From the IMG/VR virus record IMGVR_UViG_2660238683_000003, positions 1 to 27,426 of that record: a DNA stretch of 27,426 nt. One strand, written 5' to 3'. Below the pieces are notes generated by a model. That model searched no databases. It saw nothing but the letters and a program-made list of their open reading frames with translations, and had not been told where the DNA came from. A program made the translations under genes and the position numbers. This DNA is from a virus. Its lineage: Duplodnaviria; Heunggongvirae; Uroviricota; Caudoviricetes. Of the stretch, positions 19,521 to 27,313 are shown one piece after another; within the stretch, counting starts at the first letter, position 1, and the number at the start of each line of letters is the position of its first letter.

Positions 19521-19601
19521 GATCTTATCGCCTACCGTTTCGGTTTAAGTTTTTCTTCCAGCTTCTCCAACAGGAAAAACGCATAGGATTCAGTGAGCCT
19601 T

Positions 19602-20483
19602 TCAGCGTCCTGAATCGGTATACCCCCATACAAAACCAGGTTGGACACTAAGGTCTGATAGCTTTTCAATCCCCACCTGTGGAATGAAGTCGGTAGCCCG
19701 AAAGGGCACCCACAGACGGGTATACGCACCCTCTGTGGACTCCTTTTTATCCTGGTTTGGGCATTTATGCGGCGGGAGACGAAGACGCATTTCACCTTTA
19801 TCGATGTAGCACGGTAAACCATGTTCGAGCTTTTCATGAGCCAGTCGGATGTGTGCCGCCAGCTTCATAAATTCAGTATCAATGGCCATCCGTTTAATCG
19901 TTTCATAACGACGCTCAGCCTGATCTTCACGAGTACCGCTAACATCGTTATAAAGCTCACACTGATAAGCGAATTCCCAAAAACGCAAATCAACGATCGC
20001 TTCTTTGAATTCCGCGTCGTCTTCAGGTGGCAATGCAGCACGGCGCATCTCCAGCATTTCCATTGCCCAACCATCAAGCGGCACGATACGCCATTGATAG
20101 GGCACTCCCTCTACAGACACCTCAATATCGTCAATGAACGGTTCCACTTCCAGGACATGGATATCTTCAGCCAGAGCATTCATATCGCAATCGTAATAAT
20201 GCTCTTTACCGCAATGTTTACAGGTGTAGGTGAATGTCTCGACCGGTGTTTCACGGGAGCCGGTAAATATCCACCATAACGCGGTAATCCGGTCCTGCGC
20301 CGTCCATGTCAGGGGATCATGTTTCGCGGGTTCAGCCAGCAAGGCTTTTAAATACGCCGTTGTCTGTTGTTCTTGTTCCTCCGGTGTTATCGAGTTGAAA
20401 CGCATCGCATCAGCAATATTTGGCTGACGGAACTGGATCAATTCAGTTGGCCGCGATGGTAGCGGGAAAAGAGGTAAAAGCAT
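19602..20483 (-). CDS. pmgB: Tail morphogenesis protein (PmgB-like), 293 aa as written; 3' end may be frameshifted
   Basis: ATG with AAGGAG SD. Upstream of sit. The stop at 19602 leaves an 81-nt gap before sit, while a +1 frame from a G5 run continues to within 11 nt of sit. Confidence 0.5.
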   Translation of the reverse strand: MLLPLFPLPSRPTELIQFRQPNIADAMRFNSITPEEQEQQTTAYLKALLAEPAKHDPLTWTAQDRITALWWIFTGSRETPVETFTYTCKHCGKEHYYDCDMNALAEDIHVLEVEPFIDDIEVSVEGVPYQWRIVPLDGWAMEMLEMRRAALPPEDDAEFKEAIVDLRFWEFAYQCELYNDVSGTREDQAERRYETIKRMAIDTEFMKLAAHIRLAHEKLEHGLPCYIDKGEMRLRLPPHKCPNQDKKESTEGAYTRLWVPFRATDFIPQVGIEKLSDLSVQPGFVWGYTDSGR

Positions 20484-20497
20484 CCTTGCTCCTTAAT

Positions 20498-21109
20498 TCA
20501 AAGAGAAAAGCTAAAGCCCAGAAGGGAAGCCAAAGAACTTGAGGATTGGTTAAACGTGCTGTGCAATGCGAAGGTCATTGGGAATGACTTAAATTCAGTA
20601 ACCTGATCTCGCGCATAGGTGACATCGCCGGTAGTGACCGGGAATACCGTCATCTCATTTTCCAGTTTGGTTAAGCCGGAAGACAGCAACCGATAAATAC
20701 GCACATTGAGCAAATATTTAGACGGTATATTCCCGGTACCGTCCGGATTGATCACCCGACTTTTTGCCGTCTTAAACCAGTCCAAAACGAGGCCATCAAC
20801 GGTATCCCTGACCATCATTGTTATCTGCCCAGGCGAACGCTCCGTTGGTTGAAGGATATTCCCTCCGCCGATTTTAATCGTTTCATATTCGATGCTGTAA
20901 TCGTGGTAGGTAATATCTTTGGCAAAGAAGTCTGCCCCCTCCAGTCCATCAACTTCGACAGAGAACTGCCATCCTTGCGCGAACAACATTTTGTTCATGA
21001 TGATTGACGTCAGCTTACCGACTTCCCGCTCACCAACGCCGGAGCCAAATAATGTCGTCGTTAATGCCGAAGATACATAAGACTTTACTGAAGCAACATT
21101 AAACCCCAT
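20498..21109 (-). CDS. tub: Tail tube-like structural protein (203 aa)
   Basis: ATG with GAGAGGG SD. Size and position between pmgC-like and pmgB-like genes. Name by synteny only. Confidence 0.45.
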   Translation of the reverse strand: MGFNVASVKSYVSSALTTTLFGSGVGEREVGKLTSIIMNKMLFAQGWQFSVEVDGLEGADFFAKDITYHDYSIEYETIKIGGGNILQPTERSPGQITMMVRDTVDGLVLDWFKTAKSRVINPDGTGNIPSKYLLNVRIYRLLSSGLTKLENEMTVFPVTTGDVTYARDQVTEFKSFPMTFALHSTFNQSSSSLASLLGFSFSL

Positions 21110-21119
21110 ATCAGCCCTC

Positions 21120-21710
<591 letters not shown>

Positions 21711-21840
21711 TTAACCGATTCTACGAGTAGTCATTTGTTCATTGAGTAGGAATATTGTTGTCTGGGGGGTAATCAGTGTAGGTGGAATGAGGGATATGAT
21801 ATGGTTATCACATAATCAGGTTGTTTTGAGTAAAACAATA

Positions 21841-21867
21841 AAACGCCCTTTAATGGGCGTTTTTTTA
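21841..21867. terminator. Bidirectional rho-independent terminator
   Basis: Stem ACGCCC / GGGCGT with loop tttaat, followed by T7 on the plus strand and T-rich sequence on the minus strand. Lies between the end of the sim-like cluster and the tail operon. Confidence 0.6.
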
Positions 21868-21895
21868 AAACTTAAATTAACTATCCTTTCAAATA

Positions 21896-22690
21896 CTATT
21901 TTAATTCTATGTAATTTTTAAATTCTCCCTCATATTTATACATGATGCTATCAAATCCTTCCATTACATCAACGAATTGTTGTGAACATTCCGGCTTCCA
22001 AGGCGTACACTTACGAACCATATCCATTTTATTCTTATCCTTCGTTGTATCGACTAAGGATAGGTACCCTATAAAATTCATCATCTGAACAGGATCTTGA
22101 TTTGTGAATATATATTTGACGTTTTGCTTAGTAGGTGAAAAAGAATCAAAAGCAGGGAACATATATTCACCAGAAAAAGAGAGTGCAGCATCAATGACGT
22201 CTGTTGCTGGAGTGCAGTTGCTCAGAATTGGCACTAAGCTAAAATTAGCACCGGAGCACACTGCATATATATCATCCCCTTTTTTTAGTTTTAACAGAGA
22301 GTCTTGCTTTGAATCCAATATTTTCAATTTGATATAATTTAGTGGCGTTGCATTTTCCCCTGGAGTAAATAACTCTACAATTGGTTTATTATTCACCATT
22401 CTTATGGATTTTATTTCACCATACACAATTGGAATTGTGTTCCATTTTTCCTGAGCAGCAAATTCATTATCTTTAAAATCATTAACCAACTCAGATGGCA
22501 AATGATAACCAAATTGATTGTTCATTGCTTTCGAAGCAAATCCAGACAAATAGAATGCCCTTACTAAATCATAATCTTTCTTTGAGGTAGAAAGCCAATC
22601 TGGCAATTTATTATCAGCTATCGCGCTTCCAGCAAAAATAGCACAACAAAATGTTATTACATTAAATAATTTCATTTTCCATTCACTCAT
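21896..22690 (-). CDS. simC: Exported protein with signal peptide (SimC-like)
   Basis: N-terminus MKLFNVITFCCAIFAGSAIA looks like a Sec signal peptide. Low GC. ATG at 22690 overlaps the upstream stop; the ORF-track start 22708 is GTG. Confidence 0.5.
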   Translation of the reverse strand: MSEWKMKLFNVITFCCAIFAGSAIADNKLPDWLSTSKKDYDLVRAFYLSGFASKAMNNQFGYHLPSELVNDFKDNEFAAQEKWNTIPIVYGEIKSIRMVNNKPIVELFTPGENATPLNYIKLKILDSKQDSLLKLKKGDDIYAVCSGANFSLVPILSNCTPATDVIDAALSFSGEYMFPAFDSFSPTKQNVKYIFTNQDPVQMMNFIGYLSLVDTTKDKNKMDMVRKCTPWKPECSQQFVDVMEGFDSIMYKYEGEFKNYIELK

Positions 22691-23000
22691 TAATCGGTTT
22701 AAACTCACTAATTAATTCACCAAGACTATTTGGGTATGCTTTATAAATAACATACTCCGAAGAGCCATCTGAATATTTGTAAACCCCATAACAGACCAGT
22801 TTACTTATTCCTTTCTGAATAGTTTTTTGATTATAAGAATCAACCACTGTTATTCCATATGACGATAATATTTCGTTATATTCTTCAATAAGAGCTTTTC
22901 TTGTTTCCACTGAATTGCAATCTACCTTCGAAAAGTCAACTTCATCAGCAAAAACATTAAATGTTAAAAAGGAAAGCACTAAAAACAAACGAATCAGCAT
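22683..23000 (-). CDS. simB: Small exported protein (SimB-like), about 105 aa
   Basis: Signal-peptide-like MLIRLFLVLSFLTFNVFA. Start trimmed from 23018 to ATG 23000, which has AGGAG 7 nt upstream. Confidence 0.45.
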   Translation of the reverse strand: MLIRLFLVLSFLTFNVFADEVDFSKVDCNSVETRKALIEEYNEILSSYGITVVDSYNQKTIQKGISKLVCYGVYKYSDGSSEYVIYKAYPNSLGELISEFKPINE

Positions 23001-23021
23001 AAATCCACTCCTACGCATGGA

Positions 23022-23153
23022 TTAATAGTCATTGATCGCAAAGGCGTAAACTTGCCCAAGGTATTTCGTATAATCGGTACAAATCTCCTTTACGCTTGAT
23101 GCTGCATTAACAGTCCCAGCCATAAATAATAACGGTAGTAATAGTTTTCTCAT
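23022..23153 (-). CDS. simA: Small ORF (43 aa) with signal-peptide-like N-terminus (SimA-like); not in the ORF track
   Basis: Hand translation gives MRKLLLPLLFMAGTVNAASSVKEICTDYTKYLGQVYAFAINDY. GGTGAGG SD 5 nt upstream of the ATG. Stop lies 4 nt before the simB-like ORF. Confidence 0.4.
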   Translation of the reverse strand: MRKLLLPLLFMAGTVNAASSVKEICTDYTKYLGQVYAFAINDY

Positions 23154-23248
23154 TATAACCTCACCTGCCTTATAACCCATTTAGGGTACATATTTTCGCC
23201 TTTAAAAAAAGAGGTTATTAGATCCATTTGTGCATTTGTTACACAAAT

Positions 23249-23265
23249 AATGCTCTAATAAATTT
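23249..23265 (+). promoter_or_regulatory. C1-repressor operator-like site (Op51-like) upstream of c4-icd-ant
   Basis: AATGCTCTAATAAATTT matches the asymmetric P1 C1 operator consensus ATTGCTCTAATAAATTT (from memory) at 16 of 17 positions. Confidence 0.55.
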
Positions 23266-23449
23266 GTATTTTTAAGTCGCGAATGCTATCTTTTCGCATC
23301 ATATTGACCTTTTAATCGTTCAGGCTTATAGTTCCGCCGTCGTAGCAAATTCTGCGACCGGGTTTAGCAGCCTGAATGTTAGTGCGGACAACCGCAGATA
23401 TCCGATATTGCGGTATTTTTGTGTCCGTAAAACCGCGTTACGCCCAAAT

Positions 23450-23530
23450 TATGGTGGGGCGTGATGGGGAGGCTTCGGCCTGCTGGTTTCACTAACGCCA
23501 GTCTGCTAACCCCGTCACGTCCTGCCACCT
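23450..23530 (+). ncRNA. c4: c4-like antisense repressor RNA (approximate ends)
   Basis: Segments TCACTAAC (23489-23496) and CTGCTAAC (23503-23510) are complementary to GTTAGTGA (23562-23569, overlapping the icd SD) and TTAGCAG (23533-23539). The same target-like pair recurs upstream at 23363-23384. Confidence 0.45.
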
Positions 23531-23579
23531 GTTTAGCAGCGGGTAGCAGGTTGTTAAACCTGTTAGTGAGGCCGTAACT

Positions 23580-23801
23580 ATGGTTAATGCCAATCCTTGC
23601 GCACGCCAAGAATTCATCTGGCGTTTCTATTCCTGTAAAAAACACCACTATCACTTCGTTATCGCAGCAACTGAAGACGAAGCACGCTCTCAATTGCCTG
23701 ATGGCCCCTGCATTTTTACTGCCCGTTTTTCAACTAACTCGCGCAATTCACTTAGTTACTGGAACCTCCCCTTCTCTGCCGACGTTCAGGGGGTTTTATG
23801 A
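23580..23801 (+). CDS. icd: Icd-like small protein (73 aa), translationally coupled to ant
   Basis: 73-codon ORF whose TGA overlaps the ant1 ATG (ATGA). GAGG SD 9 nt upstream is the c4 target. Matches the P1 icd arrangement as recalled. Confidence 0.6.
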   Translation: MVNANPCARQEFIWRFYSCKKHHYHFVIAATEDEARSQLPDGPCIFTARFSTNSRNSLSYWNLPFSADVQGVL

Positions 23802-24841
23802 AAAAAACTCTCATCACCCGGAATGAAATAGCCGAAGCGATCGCTTTGCATACAACCTGTATGCCGACACGGGAGATCCCCGGCGCAATTGCCAACTATT
23901 TCATGATAACCAGGCGTTTTTATACCCGAACAGATAAGGCTGTGATCAACAGGCTACTGATAACCGAGATCAGGGATTATTTGATTGAACAAGGACGTCT
24001 ACGTTACGCAACAGTGGCAGCAGAAATGAGAAAGGAGGCACATAGAATGACCAGTAATAATTTGAATGTTAAAAAACCAGCATCTGTTGCTTCAGCTACG
24101 CCATCTCCAGCCGTGAATGTCATCCCCAACACCGGAGACACAATCGACAGCCAAACATTGTTGAAGATGGTCAATGAGGCACGTAAGTTATGTGGAGAAC
24201 CAGAGGTTAGAAACAATAAATTCATCGAAAAAATACTCGATGAACTTGAAGGTGAATTTTACACAAAAAGTGCAAAATCCCATGGCACAAGGGCCGGGCG
24301 CTCTTTTGAGGTCATAACCATGACCTATAAACAAGCCCTGCGAGTCGCCGCGCGCGAATCAAAAGCTGTCCGCCGTTCGCTGATCGACAAACTAGAAGAA
24401 TTGCAGCAGGCAAACTCCCCTACTCCATCGATCCCCCAAACATTACCAGAAGCTCTACGCCTGGCCGCCGAGTTGGCAGAACAGAAAATGCAGTTGGAAC
24501 AACAGCTGGTGGCCGCTGCCCCTAAAGTCGATTTTGCCGACCGGGTATCAGTGGCTAATGGAATCCTGATCGGGAACTTTGCAAAGGTCGTTGGGCTTAA
24601 GCAAAACGCCCTTTTCTCATGGTTGCGCCAGAACGGCATTCTCATGGCTTTTGGTGCGCGCAAAAACGTACCGCGCCAGCAGTACATTAACGCCGGGTAT
24701 TTCACGGTGAAAGAAGTGGTGCTGGATGATGAAAATGGCTACCAGATACGGCTGACGCCCCAATTAACGGGTAAAGGCCAGCAGTGGTTAACTCGCAAGC
24801 TACTTGATGCTGGTTTGTTAAAACCAGTAGCAATAGGTTAA
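23798..24841 (+). CDS. ant1: Antirepressor Ant1 (347 aa); probable in-frame Ant2 start at 24047
   Basis: C-terminal roughly 140 aa (PQTLPEALRLAAELAEQK...GKGQQWLTRKLLDAG) is an antirepressor-type (AntA/KilAC-like) domain, also present in the next gene. Internal ATG at 24047 has AAGGAGG 8 nt upstream. Confidence 0.75.
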   Translation: MKKTLITRNEIAEAIALHTTCMPTREIPGAIANYFMITRRFYTRTDKAVINRLLITEIRDYLIEQGRLRYATVAAEMRKEAHRMTSNNLNVKKPASVASATPSPAVNVIPNTGDTIDSQTLLKMVNEARKLCGEPEVRNNKFIEKILDELEGEFYTKSAKSHGTRAGRSFEVITMTYKQALRVAARESKAVRRSLIDKLEELQQANSPTPSIPQTLPEALRLAAELAEQKMQLEQQLVAAAPKVDFADRVSVANGILIGNFAKVVGLKQNALFSWLRQNGILMAFGARKNVPRQQYINAGYFTVKEVVLDDENGYQIRLTPQLTGKGQQWLTRKLLDAGLLKPVAIG

Positions 24842-24853
24842 CAAAAGAAAAAA

Positions 24854-24878
24854 CCTGCCAGCAAACTGGCAGGTTTCT
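24854..24878 (+). terminator. Candidate intrinsic terminator/attenuator after ant
   Basis: Stem CCTGCCAG / CTGGCAGG with loop caaa, followed by only TTT, so weak. Confidence 0.4.
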
Positions 24879-24918
24879 GAGCAGATCGACCAACCCGATC
24901 TGGATCGGACTGGAAAAA

Positions 24919-24935
24919 TTTGCTCTAATAAATTT
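24919..24935 (+). promoter_or_regulatory. C1-repressor operator-like site (Op53-like) upstream of kilA-repL
   Basis: TTTGCTCTAATAAATTT matches the C1 operator consensus at 16 of 17 positions. Second copy of the motif in the window, same orientation, about 70 bp before kilA. Confidence 0.55.
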
Positions 24936-25004
24936 CGTTTTCTAAGTGCAAAGAATCACCATTTCGAGCTGGTGATTGAAGGTTGATGCAAATTTGGAGA
25001 AAAA

Positions 25005-25805
25005 ATGCAACAAACATTCAATGCGGATATGAATATATCAAACCTTCATCAAAATGTCGATCCTTCAACCACTCTGCCTGTTATTTGTGGTGTTGAAATT
25101 ACGACCGACCGCGCTGGCCGTTACAACCTTAATGCTCTACACAGAGCGAGCGGACTCGGTGCCCATAAAGCGCCAGCTCAATGGCTAAGAACGCTGTCAG
25201 CCAAACAGCTCATCGAAGAGCTGGAAAAAGAAACTATGCAGAATTGCATAGTTTCGTTCGAAGGCCGTGGCGGCGGCACTTTTGCCCATGAATTGCTCGC
25301 TGTGGAGTACGCAGGCTGGATTTCTCCCGCGTTTCGGCTGAAGGTAAACCAGACATTTATCGACTATCGAGCCGGAAGATTACAACCTGCTATTCCGCAG
25401 AGTCTCCCTGAAGCTCTCCGTTTGGCTGCCGACCTGGCAGAGCAAAAGCAACGGCTGGAGCAAAAAATGCTTCTGGATGCCCCTAAAGTCGAATTTGCCG
25501 AACGCGTTGCTACCGCCAGCGGGGTTCTAATCGGCAACTATGCCAAAGTGCTCGGCCTGGGCCAAAACTATCTCTTCACCTGGTTGCGTGATAACGGAAT
25601 TCTGATCGCAACCGGTGAGCGCAGGAACGTCCCAAAACAAGAATACATATCCCGTGGGTATTTCACCCTCAAAGAAACCGTGATCGATACAAGCAATGGA
25701 AGCAGGATTTCTTTCACGACTCGTATAACCGGCAAAGGTCAGCAGTGGCTGATGAAGCGATTGCTTGATGCTGGTGTGCTGGTACCTGTCGCGGCAACGC
25801 GCTAA
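25005..25805 (+). CDS. kilA: KilA protein (KilA-N domain plus antirepressor-type C-terminal domain), 266 aa
   Basis: N-terminal KilA-N-like segment (GRYNLNALHRASG...). C-terminal domain paralogous to the Ant C-terminus. GGAG SD 6 nt upstream. Confidence 0.7.
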   Translation: MQQTFNADMNISNLHQNVDPSTTLPVICGVEITTDRAGRYNLNALHRASGLGAHKAPAQWLRTLSAKQLIEELEKETMQNCIVSFEGRGGGTFAHELLAVEYAGWISPAFRLKVNQTFIDYRAGRLQPAIPQSLPEALRLAADLAEQKQRLEQKMLLDAPKVEFAERVATASGVLIGNYAKVLGLGQNYLFTWLRDNGILIATGERRNVPKQEYISRGYFTLKETVIDTSNGSRISFTTRITGKGQQWLMKRLLDAGVLVPVAATR

Positions 25806-25834
25806 CAGACGTAGTAAGAACCACCAGCATTGTA

Positions 25835-26680
25835 ATGCTGGCTAAAGTCACTTTCCTGAGCTGTATAACGATGAGCGATTTTACTTTTTCTGGCTATGAA
25901 TTGGCCTGCTTTGTAACACACTCCGGTCTATCCCGTAGCGCCGGGTATATCCTGTCGCAATGTGCAAATCTCGCGGCTACAACCAGTGAATACTTCATTC
26001 ACAAGCCTCACCGCCTGATCGCGGCAGAAACTGGTTATAGTCAATCAACCGTCGTTCGTGTATTCCGTGAAGCTGTAAACAAAGGAATCCTGTCTGTAGA
26101 GATTGTTATCGGCGATCACCGTGAACGCCGCGCTAACCTGTACCGGTTTACACCATCCTTTTTGGCCTTCGCACAACAAGCTAAAAACGCGCTGACTGAA
26201 AGCAAATTAAAGATCTCTTCAGCCGCAACCAAGGTTAAAGCTGTTCTCGCTAAGACATTGGCTTTATTTGATTTTTTATCCACACCCCCATGTCAAAATG
26301 ATACCCCCTCCCCCTGTCAGGATGACGTGGCAATAAAGAATAAGAAGTCACAAGTTAAAAAAACAAAAAGATCAGTTTCCGGCGGTGCCGGAACGACCAG
26401 ACTCAAAAAATTGACTTCATGGATCGCTGAGGCAAAAGCAAAGGCTGACAATCTGCGGTTATCCAAAAAACGCGCTCAAAAACATGAGTTCAAGCAGAAA
26501 GTAGAGGCTGCTGCGCGGAAATATGCTTACCTGAAGAACAAGCGTTCGCCTGATATTGGCGGGATATCAAACTTCGATAATCTGCCGCATTGCATGACAG
26601 TAAACGAAGCTCTTAATGCGGTTTTAGCCAAAAATAAAGATAACGAACAATGGGGTATACCGGCAGGATTCAGAGGGTGA
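25835..26680 (+). CDS. repL: RepL-like lytic replication initiator (281 aa)
   Basis: HTH-like segment ETGYSQSTVVRVFREAVNKGIL. Position directly after kilA as in the P1 kilA-repL operon. Start uncertain (ATG 25835 or 25871). Confidence 0.6.
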   Translation: MLAKVTFLSCITMSDFTFSGYELACFVTHSGLSRSAGYILSQCANLAATTSEYFIHKPHRLIAAETGYSQSTVVRVFREAVNKGILSVEIVIGDHRERRANLYRFTPSFLAFAQQAKNALTESKLKISSAATKVKAVLAKTLALFDFLSTPPCQNDTPSPCQDDVAIKNKKSQVKKTKRSVSGGAGTTRLKKLTSWIAEAKAKADNLRLSKKRAQKHEFKQKVEAAARKYAYLKNKRSPDIGGISNFDNLPHCMTVNEALNAVLAKNKDNEQWGIPAGFRG

Positions 26681-26730
26681 TAGATTGCTCTAATCTGGAG
26701 TCACCTGGCGTTTTCAGTTTGAGGTCGGAG

Positions 26731-26976
26731 ATGCAATCTGATTTTTTACAGTTAGCGATCGCTTTTACAGGATATGTTTGCATTGGCTTCTGTGTATACA
26801 TGATCAGCCGAAAAATGCTTGTCGATATCGACCGCAAAGAACGAGCAGAGGAAATCTTAGTATGGATTTTCTTTGGCGCGGTCTGGCCATTAGGGATCAT
26901 GTTTGCTGCAACGTTTCTTCTGATGTGGATATTCACCATTCCAGGTGATTTATATAGAAAAAAAGCCAGACATTGA
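26731..26976 (+). CDS. Small membrane protein (about 81 aa, two predicted TM helices)
   Basis: Hydrophobic stretches LAIAFTGYVCIGFCVYMI and ILVWIFFGAVWPLGIMFAATFLLMWIF. ATG 26731 has GAGG upstream. The ORF-track start 26650 overlaps repL. Confidence 0.4.
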   Translation: MQSDFLQLAIAFTGYVCIGFCVYMISRKMLVDIDRKERAEEILVWIFFGAVWPLGIMFAATFLLMWIFTIPGDLYRKKARH

Positions 26977-27099
26977 TACAATCGCTGCGGGTGCTTGAGG
27001 CTATCTGCTTCAGGCATTACCCGAAAAGCAGACAGAAGAAAGCCCCAGATAACATTACGCGTCCTGCAAGACGCTTAACATTAATCTGAGGCCATATCT

Positions 27100-27306
27100 A
27101 TGCTTAGCATACGTAGATTAGCCTCTTACCGACCAAAAGGTCAAGGAGAAGCAGGCTATGAAGCAGCAAAAAGCGATGTTAATCGCTCTGATCGTCATCT
27201 GTTTAACCGTCATTGTGACGGTACTGGTAACGAGGAAAGACCTCTGCGAGGTACGAATCCGAACCGGCCAGACGGAGGTCACTGTCTTCACAGCCTACGA
27301 ATCTGA
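27100..27306 (+). CDS. mok: mok-like overlapping reading frame (modulator of killing)
   Basis: ORF that starts upstream of hok and overlaps almost all of it in another frame, as in hok/mok/sok loci. Confidence 0.35.
   Translation: MLSIRRLASYRPKGQGEAGYEAAKSDVNRSDRHLFNRHCDGTGNEERPLRGTNPNRPDGGHCLHSLRI
27110..27145 (-). promoter_or_regulatory. Candidate sok-like antisense promoter
   Basis: On the minus strand: -35 TTGACC (27144-27139), 18-bp spacer, -10 TAATCT (27120-27115). The transcript would run antisense across the mok start and hok leader. Confidence 0.3.
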
Positions 27307-27313
27307 AAGGTAA
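27158..27313 (+). CDS. hok: Hok/Gef-family type I toxin (51 aa)
   Basis: MKQQKAMLIALIVICLTVIVTVLVTRKDLCEVRIRTGQTEVTVFTAYESER is near-identical in pattern to E. coli HokD/RelF as recalled. AAGGAG SD upstream. Confidence 0.85.
   Translation: MKQQKAMLIALIVICLTVIVTVLVTRKDLCEVRIRTGQTEVTVFTAYESER

What the first reader, a model, noticed from the sequence alone, without database searches (positions are those of the whole stretch)
21896..23153. Low-GC cluster of three small exported proteins (sim-like) between the tail operon and immI
Three consecutive minus-strand ORFs (43, about 105 and about 265 aa) each start with a signal-peptide-like N-terminus and are far more AT-rich than the backbone. They are tightly packed (4-nt gap, then overlapping stop/start) and end at a clean terminator. 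Position and the exported nature of the largest protein match the P1 sim (superimmunity) locus as recalled. The 43-aa ORF is absent from the ORF track and is easy to miss.
Basis: partly seen in the sequence, partly recalled or inferred. Interest (0 to 1): 0.45.

Follow-up and report, generated by a model that had tools for sequence, protein, structure and literature searches.

The report
Phage P1 sim superinfection-exclusion operon
This is the long-known simA-simB-simC "superimmunity" cluster of a P1-type phage-plasmid, an AT-rich add-on whose exported SimC protein is reported to keep a second P1 phage's DNA out of the cell; it is ordinary, though comparison shows the tiny simA gene is only a leftover stump of a longer gene.

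Summary
Window 21896-23180 (minus strand) is the simC-simB-simA operon of a P1-like phage-plasmid. It is 98.8% identical in DNA to P1 and 100% identical to E. coli plasmid NZ_CP046005.1. SimC matches P1 SimC at every residue. SimB and SimA each differ by two residues.

The 1.5-kb cassette (21739-23248) has 33% GC against 47% for the rest of the window. It ends at a terminator (21863-21840). It sits between the late promoter LPsit and the C1 operator Oc4, next to C4 RNA, icd and ant. All three products have rule-based Sec signal peptides.

Papers read here describe sim as a non-essential, low-GC variable region whose product blocks DNA entry by superinfecting phage.

Three results go beyond the annotation:
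- SimB and SimC stay paired, under purifying selection, down to 39% identity.
- SimA is a remnant of a 179-215-aa exported protein. Homology runs in frame across its stop codon to a deletion junction just before simB's ribosome-binding site.

Other P1-like elements carry unrelated exported-protein cassettes in the same slot.

Verdict: already known, low interest.

The parts
21739..23248 (-). Whole low-GC sim cassette, the variable slot between the conserved backbone ends
   Evidence: GC is 0.334 against 0.467 for the rest of the window. Alignments with P7 and Ro157c2YLVW lose homology between about 21738 and about 23251. PMC9603915 lists simABC as low-GC variable region 4 of P1-like phage-plasmids.
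21718..21736 (-). Late promoter LPsit of the downstream pmgC-tub-pmgB-sit operon, marking the left backbone boundary
   Evidence: Mapped from the P1 annotation (L001 3019-3037). Backbone identity with P7 and Ro157 resumes at window position 21738 and below.
21840..21863 (-). Intrinsic terminator ending the sim operon
   Evidence: The scan finds AAAACGCCC-ATTAAA-GGGCGTTTT followed by a T run. The RNA fold is -16.2 kcal/mol with z = -2.98.
21896..22690 (-). simC, the superinfection-exclusion protein: 264 aa as annotated, probably 259 aa from the ATG at 22675, with a 20-aa signal peptide, an OB-fold core and a helical C-terminal domain
22683..23018 (-). simB: 111 aa as annotated, probably 105 aa from the ATG at 23000, which has an AGGAG 7 nt upstream; an exported partner of SimC
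   Evidence: Two substitutions relative to P1 SimB. PHROG 14329 is 105 positions long and matches residues 7-111. The signal peptide reads VFA|DEV. A SimB-like gene sits directly upstream of the SimC-like gene in L006 and L007. dN/dS is 0.19-0.22.
23022..23180 (-). simA: 52 aa as annotated, 43 aa from the ATG at 23153; the 5' remnant of a longer exported-protein gene
   Evidence: Residues 10-50 are 90% identical to the first 41 aa of the 215-aa gp35 of phage Ro157c2YLVW. PHROG 3933 has 213 positions and only positions 1-41 are matched. A full-length 179-aa version precedes simB-simC in L007.
23005..23036 (-). Decay zone and deletion junction of the ancestral long simA, including the in-frame TAA (23022-23024)
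   Evidence: The ungapped alignment with Ro157 and L007 continues across the TAA, which is GAA or GAG there, and across the annotated simB ATG. It then breaks. Plasmid pMCR_SCKP-LL83 has AAA at that codon and one 156-aa simA'-simB ORF.
23249..23265 (+). C1 repressor operator Oc4, marking the right backbone boundary and shared with the divergent c4-icd-ant operon
   Evidence: Mapped from the P1 annotation (L001 4551-4567). The window reads AAATTTATTAGAGCATT on the minus strand. Homology with P7 ends at about 23251.

Best explanation
The region is the simA-simB-simC operon of a P1-type phage-plasmid. It is an accessory, horizontally exchanged low-GC cassette. It lies between the late promoter LPsit and the C1 operator Oc4, is transcribed away from immI, and ends at its own terminator.

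Shown here: the identity with P1 sim, the cassette boundaries, the terminator, the signal-peptide-like N-termini, purifying selection on simB and simC, and an OB-fold core in the SimC model.

Taken from the literature: Sim acts by superinfection exclusion, preventing superinfecting P1 from delivering its DNA into the cytoplasm, and the genes are dispensable for plaque formation.

Inferred mechanism: SimC is exported by the Sec pathway and its 20-aa signal peptide is cleaved. In the periplasm its OB-fold domain binds a component of the incoming injection machinery, so DNA transfer stalls after adsorption. My preferred target is the tail-tip or tape-measure protein Sit, or an inner-membrane entry factor, rather than the DNA itself. 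SimB, an 87-aa mature periplasmic protein, is a conserved partner of SimC. SimA is not a third functional component. It is the promoter-proximal stump (signal peptide plus about 26 residues) of a 179-215-aa exported protein, cut down by an internal deletion and a nonsense codon.
For: Identity
- 98.8% DNA identity to P1 46590-48290, which is annotated simC, simB and simA.
- SimC is identical to P1 SimC; SimB and SimA each have two substitutions.
- 100% match to E. coli plasmid NZ_CP046005.1, and 136 of 590 matching plasmid records carry at least 80% of the query.

Context
- pmgC and tub lie downstream; Oc4, C4 RNA, icd and ant lie upstream.

Function, from papers
- 'simC superinfection exclusion gene' (PMC2409434).
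- simA, simB and simC are non-essential in a CRISPRi screen (PMC10695390).
- simABC is a low-GC variable region (PMC9603915).

Export
- All three products have rule-based signal peptides.

SimC fold
- AF2 pLDDT is 75.6.
- The best viral structure matches are named tRNA_anti-like or putative nucleic-acid-binding lipoprotein.
- Distant homologues P0012, P0014 and P0015 pass the PF12869 threshold.

SimB-SimC pairing
- The pair is adjacent in L006 (SimC 84% identical) and L007 (SimC 39% identical).
- dN/dS is 0.19-0.36.

SimA as a relic
Against: No experiment was done on this element.

The exclusion phenotype rests on work with P1 from 1982-1990 that I could not read here. From memory, it was seen only when sim was on a multicopy plasmid.

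SignalP was not available, so the cleavage sites come from a simple rule.

SimC itself scores below Pfam's PF12869 threshold (19 against 23.5 bits), and its model is only of medium confidence.

No target of SimC is known. OB folds bind DNA, sugars or proteins, so the choice of a protein target is a guess.

The SimB model is unusable (pLDDT 53).

All 23 IMG/VR contigs that match the 35-nt P1-type simA-simB junction pattern, and P1 itself, keep the TAA and an intact SimA signal peptide. A role for the short peptide, or for its translation in expressing simB, is therefore not excluded.
Confidence: 0.9

Rival explanations
1. SimA is a genuine third component: a small exported peptide of about 26 residues that assists SimB and SimC, as P1's GenBank record has it ('putative superimmunity accessory function').
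For: P1 annotates it this way. The ORF keeps a good signal peptide. All 23 IMG/VR contigs matching the P1-type junction pattern, plus P1, keep the same TAA-terminated form. Its first 41 codons are strongly conserved against the distant L007 homologue, with dN/dS 0.08; that part used valid coordinates.
Against: That conservation comes from comparison with a full-length 179-aa gene. The P1 form retains only about one fifth of the protein. Homology continues in frame past the stop codon, which is what a decayed gene looks like. One plasmid reads through as a SimA'-SimB fusion without the separate peptide. The few substitutions seen among sim-type elements in this stretch are all non-synonymous.
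Confidence: 0.15
2. The cassette's natural role is not phage exclusion. It is some other envelope-related benefit to the lysogen, and exclusion is an overexpression side effect.
For: From memory, the sim phenotype was reported only from multicopy clones. The slot holds varied exported or lipoprotein cargo in other P1-like elements, including YfjT-like and DUF5384 proteins. PADLOC has no model matching any of them.
Against: Papers consistently describe sim as superinfection exclusion. SimC relatives occur almost only in P1-like elements, with 15 representatives among 1.84 billion proteins, which fits a phage-specific target. The P7 alternative lipoprotein gives a weak hit to the TraT surface-exclusion family (23.1 against 31 bits).
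Confidence: 0.1
3. SimC works by binding the incoming phage DNA directly in the periplasm through its OB fold, not by binding a protein of the injection apparatus.
Against: That name is a prediction and is not tested. Phage DNA is thought to cross the periplasm inside a protein conduit. From memory, other periplasmic or membrane exclusion proteins with known targets (TP-J34 Ltp, HK97 gp15) act on the tape-measure protein. From memory, exclusion by sim was reported for P1-type phages; a generic DNA binder would be expected to act on unrelated phages too. Specificity was not tested here.
Confidence: 0.15

Closest known systems
Bacteriophage P1 simABC (SimC YP_006511, SimB YP_006512, SimA YP_006513; GenBank M34382 'sim region')
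   Same: Same genes at the same locus. DNA identity is 98.8%. SimC is identical, and SimB and SimA each differ at two residues.
   Different: There are 21 nucleotide differences in 1.7 kb. Five of them cluster at 23227-23242, in the predicted PsimA region next to Oc4. The host element differs from P1 in the tail-fibre/cin region and the rlf region.
Long-SimA cassettes of other P1-like elements (Ro157c2YLVW gp35-gp34; GCA_005690115.1 contig with a 179-aa gene, simB-like and simC-like genes)
   Same: Same slot between Oc4 and LPsit. Same promoter-proximal signal peptide and first 41 or so residues as SimA. All products look exported.
   Different: The first gene is full length (179-215 aa). Ro157 has a YfjT-like 158-aa protein in place of SimB and SimC. 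One contig (L006) carries simB-simC and gp35-gp34 in tandem.
PF12869 'tRNA_anti-like' OB-fold lipoproteins (for example PDB 3F1Z from Klebsiella pneumoniae)
   Different: SimC itself is below the threshold. It has no lipobox and appears to be a soluble periplasmic protein cleaved at AIA|D. It carries an extra N-terminal helix and a helical C-terminal domain of about 100 residues.
Envelope-located superinfection-exclusion proteins of other phages (TP-J34 Ltp, HK97 gp15, T4 Imm and Sp, T5 Llp, Cor); comparison from general knowledge
   Same: Works alike: a prophage-encoded protein outside the cytoplasm that blocks DNA entry after adsorption. One Foldseek match to SimC's OB domain is a viral protein named 'host cell surface-exposed lipoprotein'.
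   Different: No sequence relationship was detected in Pfam, NCBIfam or PADLOC. SimC's target is unknown. SimC is not a lipoprotein or a membrane protein.

Membership tests
P1 Sim (SimC) superinfection-exclusion protein | Sequence identity to P1 SimC over the full length | tested here: met
   264 of 264 residues are identical to YP_006511. PHROG 14355 matches at E 5e-191.
P1 Sim (SimC) superinfection-exclusion protein | Location in the P1 genome between pmgC/LPsit and Oc4/c4-icd-ant, preceded by simB and simA | tested here: met
   Collinear with P1 from 36972 to 51585. Annotation mapped. The C4 RNA is found by Rfam.
P1 Sim (SimC) superinfection-exclusion protein | N-terminal signal peptide that is cleaved on export | tested here: inconclusive
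   A rule-based check finds a charged n-region, a hydrophobic core (H = 2.67) and the site AIA|DNK. SignalP was not available. Processing of the identical P1 protein was reported by Maillou and Dreiseikelmann 1990, cited in PMC2409434 but not readable here.
P1 Sim (SimC) superinfection-exclusion protein | Confers exclusion of superinfecting P1 after adsorption | not testable with these tools
   Known only from the literature on P1.
PF12869 tRNA_anti-like OB-fold domain | Score above Pfam's gathering threshold | tested here: not met
   SimC scores 19 bits against a cut-off of 23.5. Its distant homologues P0012, P0014 and P0015 score 53.8, 25.9 and 43.7 bits and pass.
PF12869 tRNA_anti-like OB-fold domain | Five-stranded OB barrel superposable on a solved member | tested here: met
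PF12869 tRNA_anti-like OB-fold domain | Lipoprotein lipobox, typical of many members | tested here: not met
   There is no [LVI][ASTVI][GAS]C motif at the end of the signal peptide. The predicted cleavage is by signal peptidase I at AIA|D.
Known anti-phage defence systems (PADLOC-DB) | Match to any defence-protein model | tested here: not met
   No hit at E up to 0.1 for SimA, SimB, SimC or the alternative cassette proteins.

The most novel reading that the evidence does not exclude
The LPsit-Oc4 slot of P1-like phage-plasmids is a swap site for alternative exported 'gatekeeper' cassettes. Those seen are long-SimA/SimB/SimC, gp35/YfjT-like, and TraT-like lipoprotein/DUF5384. The ancestral sim system would then have been three full-length periplasmic proteins. 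In P1 the first has decayed to the 43-aa SimA stump, while SimC, with SimB, uses an OB fold to capture a part of the incoming injection apparatus. Different cassettes would give different exclusion specificities among competing P1-like elements.
Probability: 0.35. Interest if true: 0.35.

Novelty: already known. Interest (0 to 1): 0.12.

Why it matters
As a finding it only re-identifies a locus described in 1982-1990 and annotated in the 2004 P1 genome, so it changes nothing.

The side results have modest practical value:
- They suggest that 'SimA' should be annotated as a gene remnant, and that SimB starts at the internal ATG.
- They give the first structural lead (an OB fold) for how SimC might work, which is still unknown.
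- They show that SimB and SimC form a conserved pair worth testing together.
- They define a two-regulatory-element slot where P1-like plasmids exchange exported-protein cargo. P1-like plasmids are common in Escherichia, Salmonella and Klebsiella, and some carry resistance genes.

Tried and rejected
- The 2004 P1 genome paper (PMC523184) is not held, so statements from it and from the 1982-1990 sim papers rest on memory or on citing papers.
- The afdb50 fold library was unavailable.
- Pfam, NCBIfam and PADLOC gave nothing significant for SimA, SimB or SimC. The weak TcpS, Ecm33 and eut_hyp hits are far below their cut-offs and were dismissed.
- Two word-index homologue searches and one exhaustive search found only a tiny SimC family and only near-identical SimB sequences. 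A deep alignment was therefore impossible.
- The SimB model from four near-identical sequences had pLDDT 53 and was not fold-searched.
- I tested whether the C-terminal part of D6 orf79 resembles SimC, which would have implied a SimB-SimC fusion. It does not (E about 1).
- The first dN/dS script mis-sliced the simB and simC coordinates. It was rerun correctly.
- A literature search linking tRNA_anti-like domains to prophage exclusion found nothing useful.
- The consensus scan found no convincing sigma-70 promoter for simA in the window. P1's PsimA and PsimB are themselves only predictions.

Full report
**What is there.**

On the minus strand of window 21896-23180 lie three consecutive ORFs.
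- simA is 23022-23180: 52 aa from the first ATG, 43 aa from the ATG at 23153.
- simB is 22683-23018: 111 aa, or 105 aa from the ATG at 23000.
- simC is 21896-22690: 264 aa, or 259 aa from the ATG at 22675.

The stretch 21739-23248 has 33.4% GC against 46.7% for the rest of the window. It is the lowest-GC 1.5 kb in the window.

Thirty-two bases after the simC stop codon there is a 9-bp G+C-rich hairpin (21863-21840) followed by a T run. Its folding energy is 3 sd below that of shuffled sequence.

A rule-based check finds a charged N-terminus, a hydrophobic core and a small-x-small cleavage site in all three products. The sites are VNA|ASS, VFA|DEV and AIA|DNK. SignalP was not available.

The simA-simB spacer is 3 nt and in frame. 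The simB/simC overlap of 8 nt applies only to the annotated simC start.

**Identity.**

Megablast of 21700-23400 gives 98.8% identity over the full length to phage P1 46590-48290, where GenBank annotates simC, simB and simA. It also gives a 100% match to E. coli plasmid NZ_CP046005.1.

SimC is identical to P1 SimC at all 264 residues. SimB differs at two residues (N72S, Q81K) and SimA at two.

The window as a whole is collinear with P1 over 94-7081 and 12082-26694 at 97-98% identity.

Downstream of the cassette are pmgC and tub. Upstream are the C1 operator Oc4 (23249-23265), the a1b1 target and C4 antisense RNA (Rfam RF03163 and RF01695), icd and ant1.

**What is known about it.**

Papers that I could read say the following.
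- simC is called a 'superinfection exclusion gene', citing Maillou and Dreiseikelmann 1990 (PMC2409434).
- simA, simB and simC are non-essential for plaque formation in a CRISPRi screen (PMC10695390).
- simABC is one of eight variable, low-GC regions of P1-like phage-plasmids (PMC9603915).

The original papers and the 2004 P1 genome paper are not held. Two points come from my memory only: that the phenotype needs a multicopy clone, and that the protein is processed.

**Cassette boundaries.**

Alignment with P7 and with phage Ro157c2YLVW shows where backbone identity stops.
- On one side it stops at about 21738, immediately next to the late promoter LPsit (mapped to 21718-21736).
- On the other side it stops, for P7, at about 23251, the edge of operator Oc4.

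The cassette thus sits exactly between two regulatory elements of the backbone.

Of 590 plasmid records that match the query, 136 hold at least 80% of it. The rest share only the flanks or fragments.

In the same slot P7 carries a lipoprotein (Upf50.5) and a DUF5384 protein with a signal peptide. Upf50.5 gives a weak, sub-threshold TraT hit.

Ro157c2YLVW carries a 215-aa and a 158-aa protein, both with signal peptides. The 158-aa protein in the homologous L006 locus hits PF27224 YfjT.

Every cassette seen encodes exported proteins.

**SimA is a remnant.**

Several observations lead to this conclusion.
- SimA residues 10-50 are 90% identical to the first 41 residues of the 215-aa Ro157 gp35.
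- SimA matches only positions 1-41 of the 213-position PHROG 3933.
- At the DNA level, identity with Ro157 is 100% through the promoter region and the first 36 or so codons. It then drops to about 68%, still ungapped, across the simA TAA and the annotated simB ATG, and then breaks.
- The TAA aligns with GAA in Ro157 and GAG in L007.
- simA and the annotated simB start are in the same frame, separated only by TAA-TCC.
- tblastn of gp35 against plasmids aligns residues 1-48 across the stop codon in sim-type plasmids. It finds 84 records with the full-length gene.

A more distant P1-like element, GCA_005690115.1 (L007), has at the same locus three genes in order:
1. a full-length 179-aa homologue of gp35,
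2. a SimB-like gene (56% identity),
3. a SimC-like gene (37-39% identity).

The simplest history is an ancestral three-gene operon. In the P1 lineage an internal deletion removed most of the first gene and the intergenic region. That deletion ends right before simB's AGGAG and the ATG at 23000.

Klebsiella plasmid pMCR_SCKP-LL83 has AAA in place of TAA, and so has one 156-aa SimA'-SimB ORF. P1 and all 23 IMG/VR contigs that match the P1-type junction pattern have TAA.

The likely true SimB start is therefore the ATG at 23000, giving 105 aa. This fits the 105-position PHROG 14329 and the 105-aa gene calls in public data.

I found no paper in the library that states this, but the library lacks the key P1 papers.

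**SimB and SimC.**

SimC has very few relatives. There are 15 representatives at E up to 0.001 among 1.84 billion proteins, and most are fragments of the same protein.

In both informative contexts (L006 with SimC 84% identical, L007 with SimC 39% identical) a SimB-like gene lies directly upstream of the SimC-like gene. Both genes are under purifying selection: dN/dS is 0.29-0.36 for simC and 0.19-0.22 for simB. This supports a functional pair.

Phage D6 has a SimB-like domain (51% identity) fused to an unrelated C-terminal part of about 160 residues, at another locus.

An AlphaFold2 model of SimC built from seven sequences has mean pLDDT 75.6. It shows a signal helix, a long helix, a five-stranded barrel at about residues 88-161, and a helical C-terminal domain.

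Foldseek against viral models finds proteins named tRNA_anti-like, putative nucleic-acid-binding lipoprotein and host cell surface-exposed lipoprotein.

SimC itself is below Pfam's PF12869 threshold at 19 against 23.5 bits. Three distant homologues pass it.

SimC has no lipobox. The SimB model was too poor to use.

**How it most likely works.**

- Shown here: gene identity, export signals by rule, the terminator, the boundaries, selection on simB and simC, and the OB fold.
- From the literature: exclusion at the DNA-entry step, and non-essentiality.
- Inferred: mature SimC (about 239 aa) acts in the periplasm with SimB. It uses the OB domain to bind a part of the injection apparatus (the tape-measure/transglycosylase Sit or the tail tip) or an inner-membrane entry factor.

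Direct binding to DNA is a weaker alternative. A non-exclusion role is less likely still.

**Verdict.**

This is the already known P1 sim operon in a P1-like plasmid, so interest is low. The by-products may be useful to annotators and to anyone reopening the mechanism of Sim:
- SimA is a relic.
- The SimB start should be corrected.
- SimC has an OB fold.
- SimB and SimC are a conserved pair.
- The LPsit-Oc4 slot exchanges exported-protein cassettes.

Noticed in passing
window 23005-23180 (simA and the simA/simB junction); L003 2074-2721; L007 5059-5598: P1-type SimA (43-52 aa) is the 5' stump of a 179-215-aa exported protein that is full length in other P1-like elements. Homology runs in frame across the TAA stop into the annotated simB start. 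The real SimB start is probably the ATG at 23000.
   Followed up: yes
L008 1801-2271 (MF510496.1, Klebsiella plasmid pMCR_SCKP-LL83): This plasmid has AAA instead of TAA at the simA stop codon, giving a single 156-aa SimA'-SimB ORF. P1 and all 23 IMG/VR contigs matching the junction pattern have TAA.
   Followed up: yes
L002 3162-4226 (P7); L003 1546-2721 (Ro157c2YLVW); L006 209-3109: The same LPsit-Oc4 slot holds unrelated cassettes that all encode exported proteins. P7 has a lipoprotein with a weak TraT-like hit plus a DUF5384 protein. Ro157 has gp35 plus a YfjT-like gp34. Contig L006 carries simB-simC and gp35-gp34 in tandem behind a 107-aa membrane protein.
   Followed up: partly
L004 2848-3744 (phage D6 orf79): A SimB-like domain (51% identity) is fused to an unrelated C-terminal part of about 160 residues. 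It lies at a different locus, near a second icd/ant pair. No similarity to SimC was found.
   Followed up: partly
window 23227-23242: Five of the 21 nucleotide differences from P1 in this 1.7-kb stretch cluster in 16 nt of the intergenic region. This is where P1's record predicts promoter PsimA, just beside operator Oc4. Any effect on sim expression is unknown.
   Followed up: no
window 7082-12081 and 26695-27426: These stretches are not collinear with P1. In P1 the corresponding regions hold lydC, cin and the invertible tail-fibre C segment, and rlfA/rlfB. The first of them is also low in GC from about 6450. Both are known variable regions of P1-like plasmids.
   Followed up: no
window about 22380 (simC) and about 23016 (simA/simB junction), by analogy with P1 47270 and 47906: A 2008 paper (PMC2409434) reports high-scoring predicted ArgR boxes inside simC and exactly at the simA/simB junction of P1. 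The second coincides with the deletion junction described here. Neither has been tested.
   Followed up: no
L007 1732-2528: The distant P1-like element that carries the full three-gene sim operon has a YhaV/PrlF toxin-antitoxin pair next to its ant/Rha genes.
   Followed up: no
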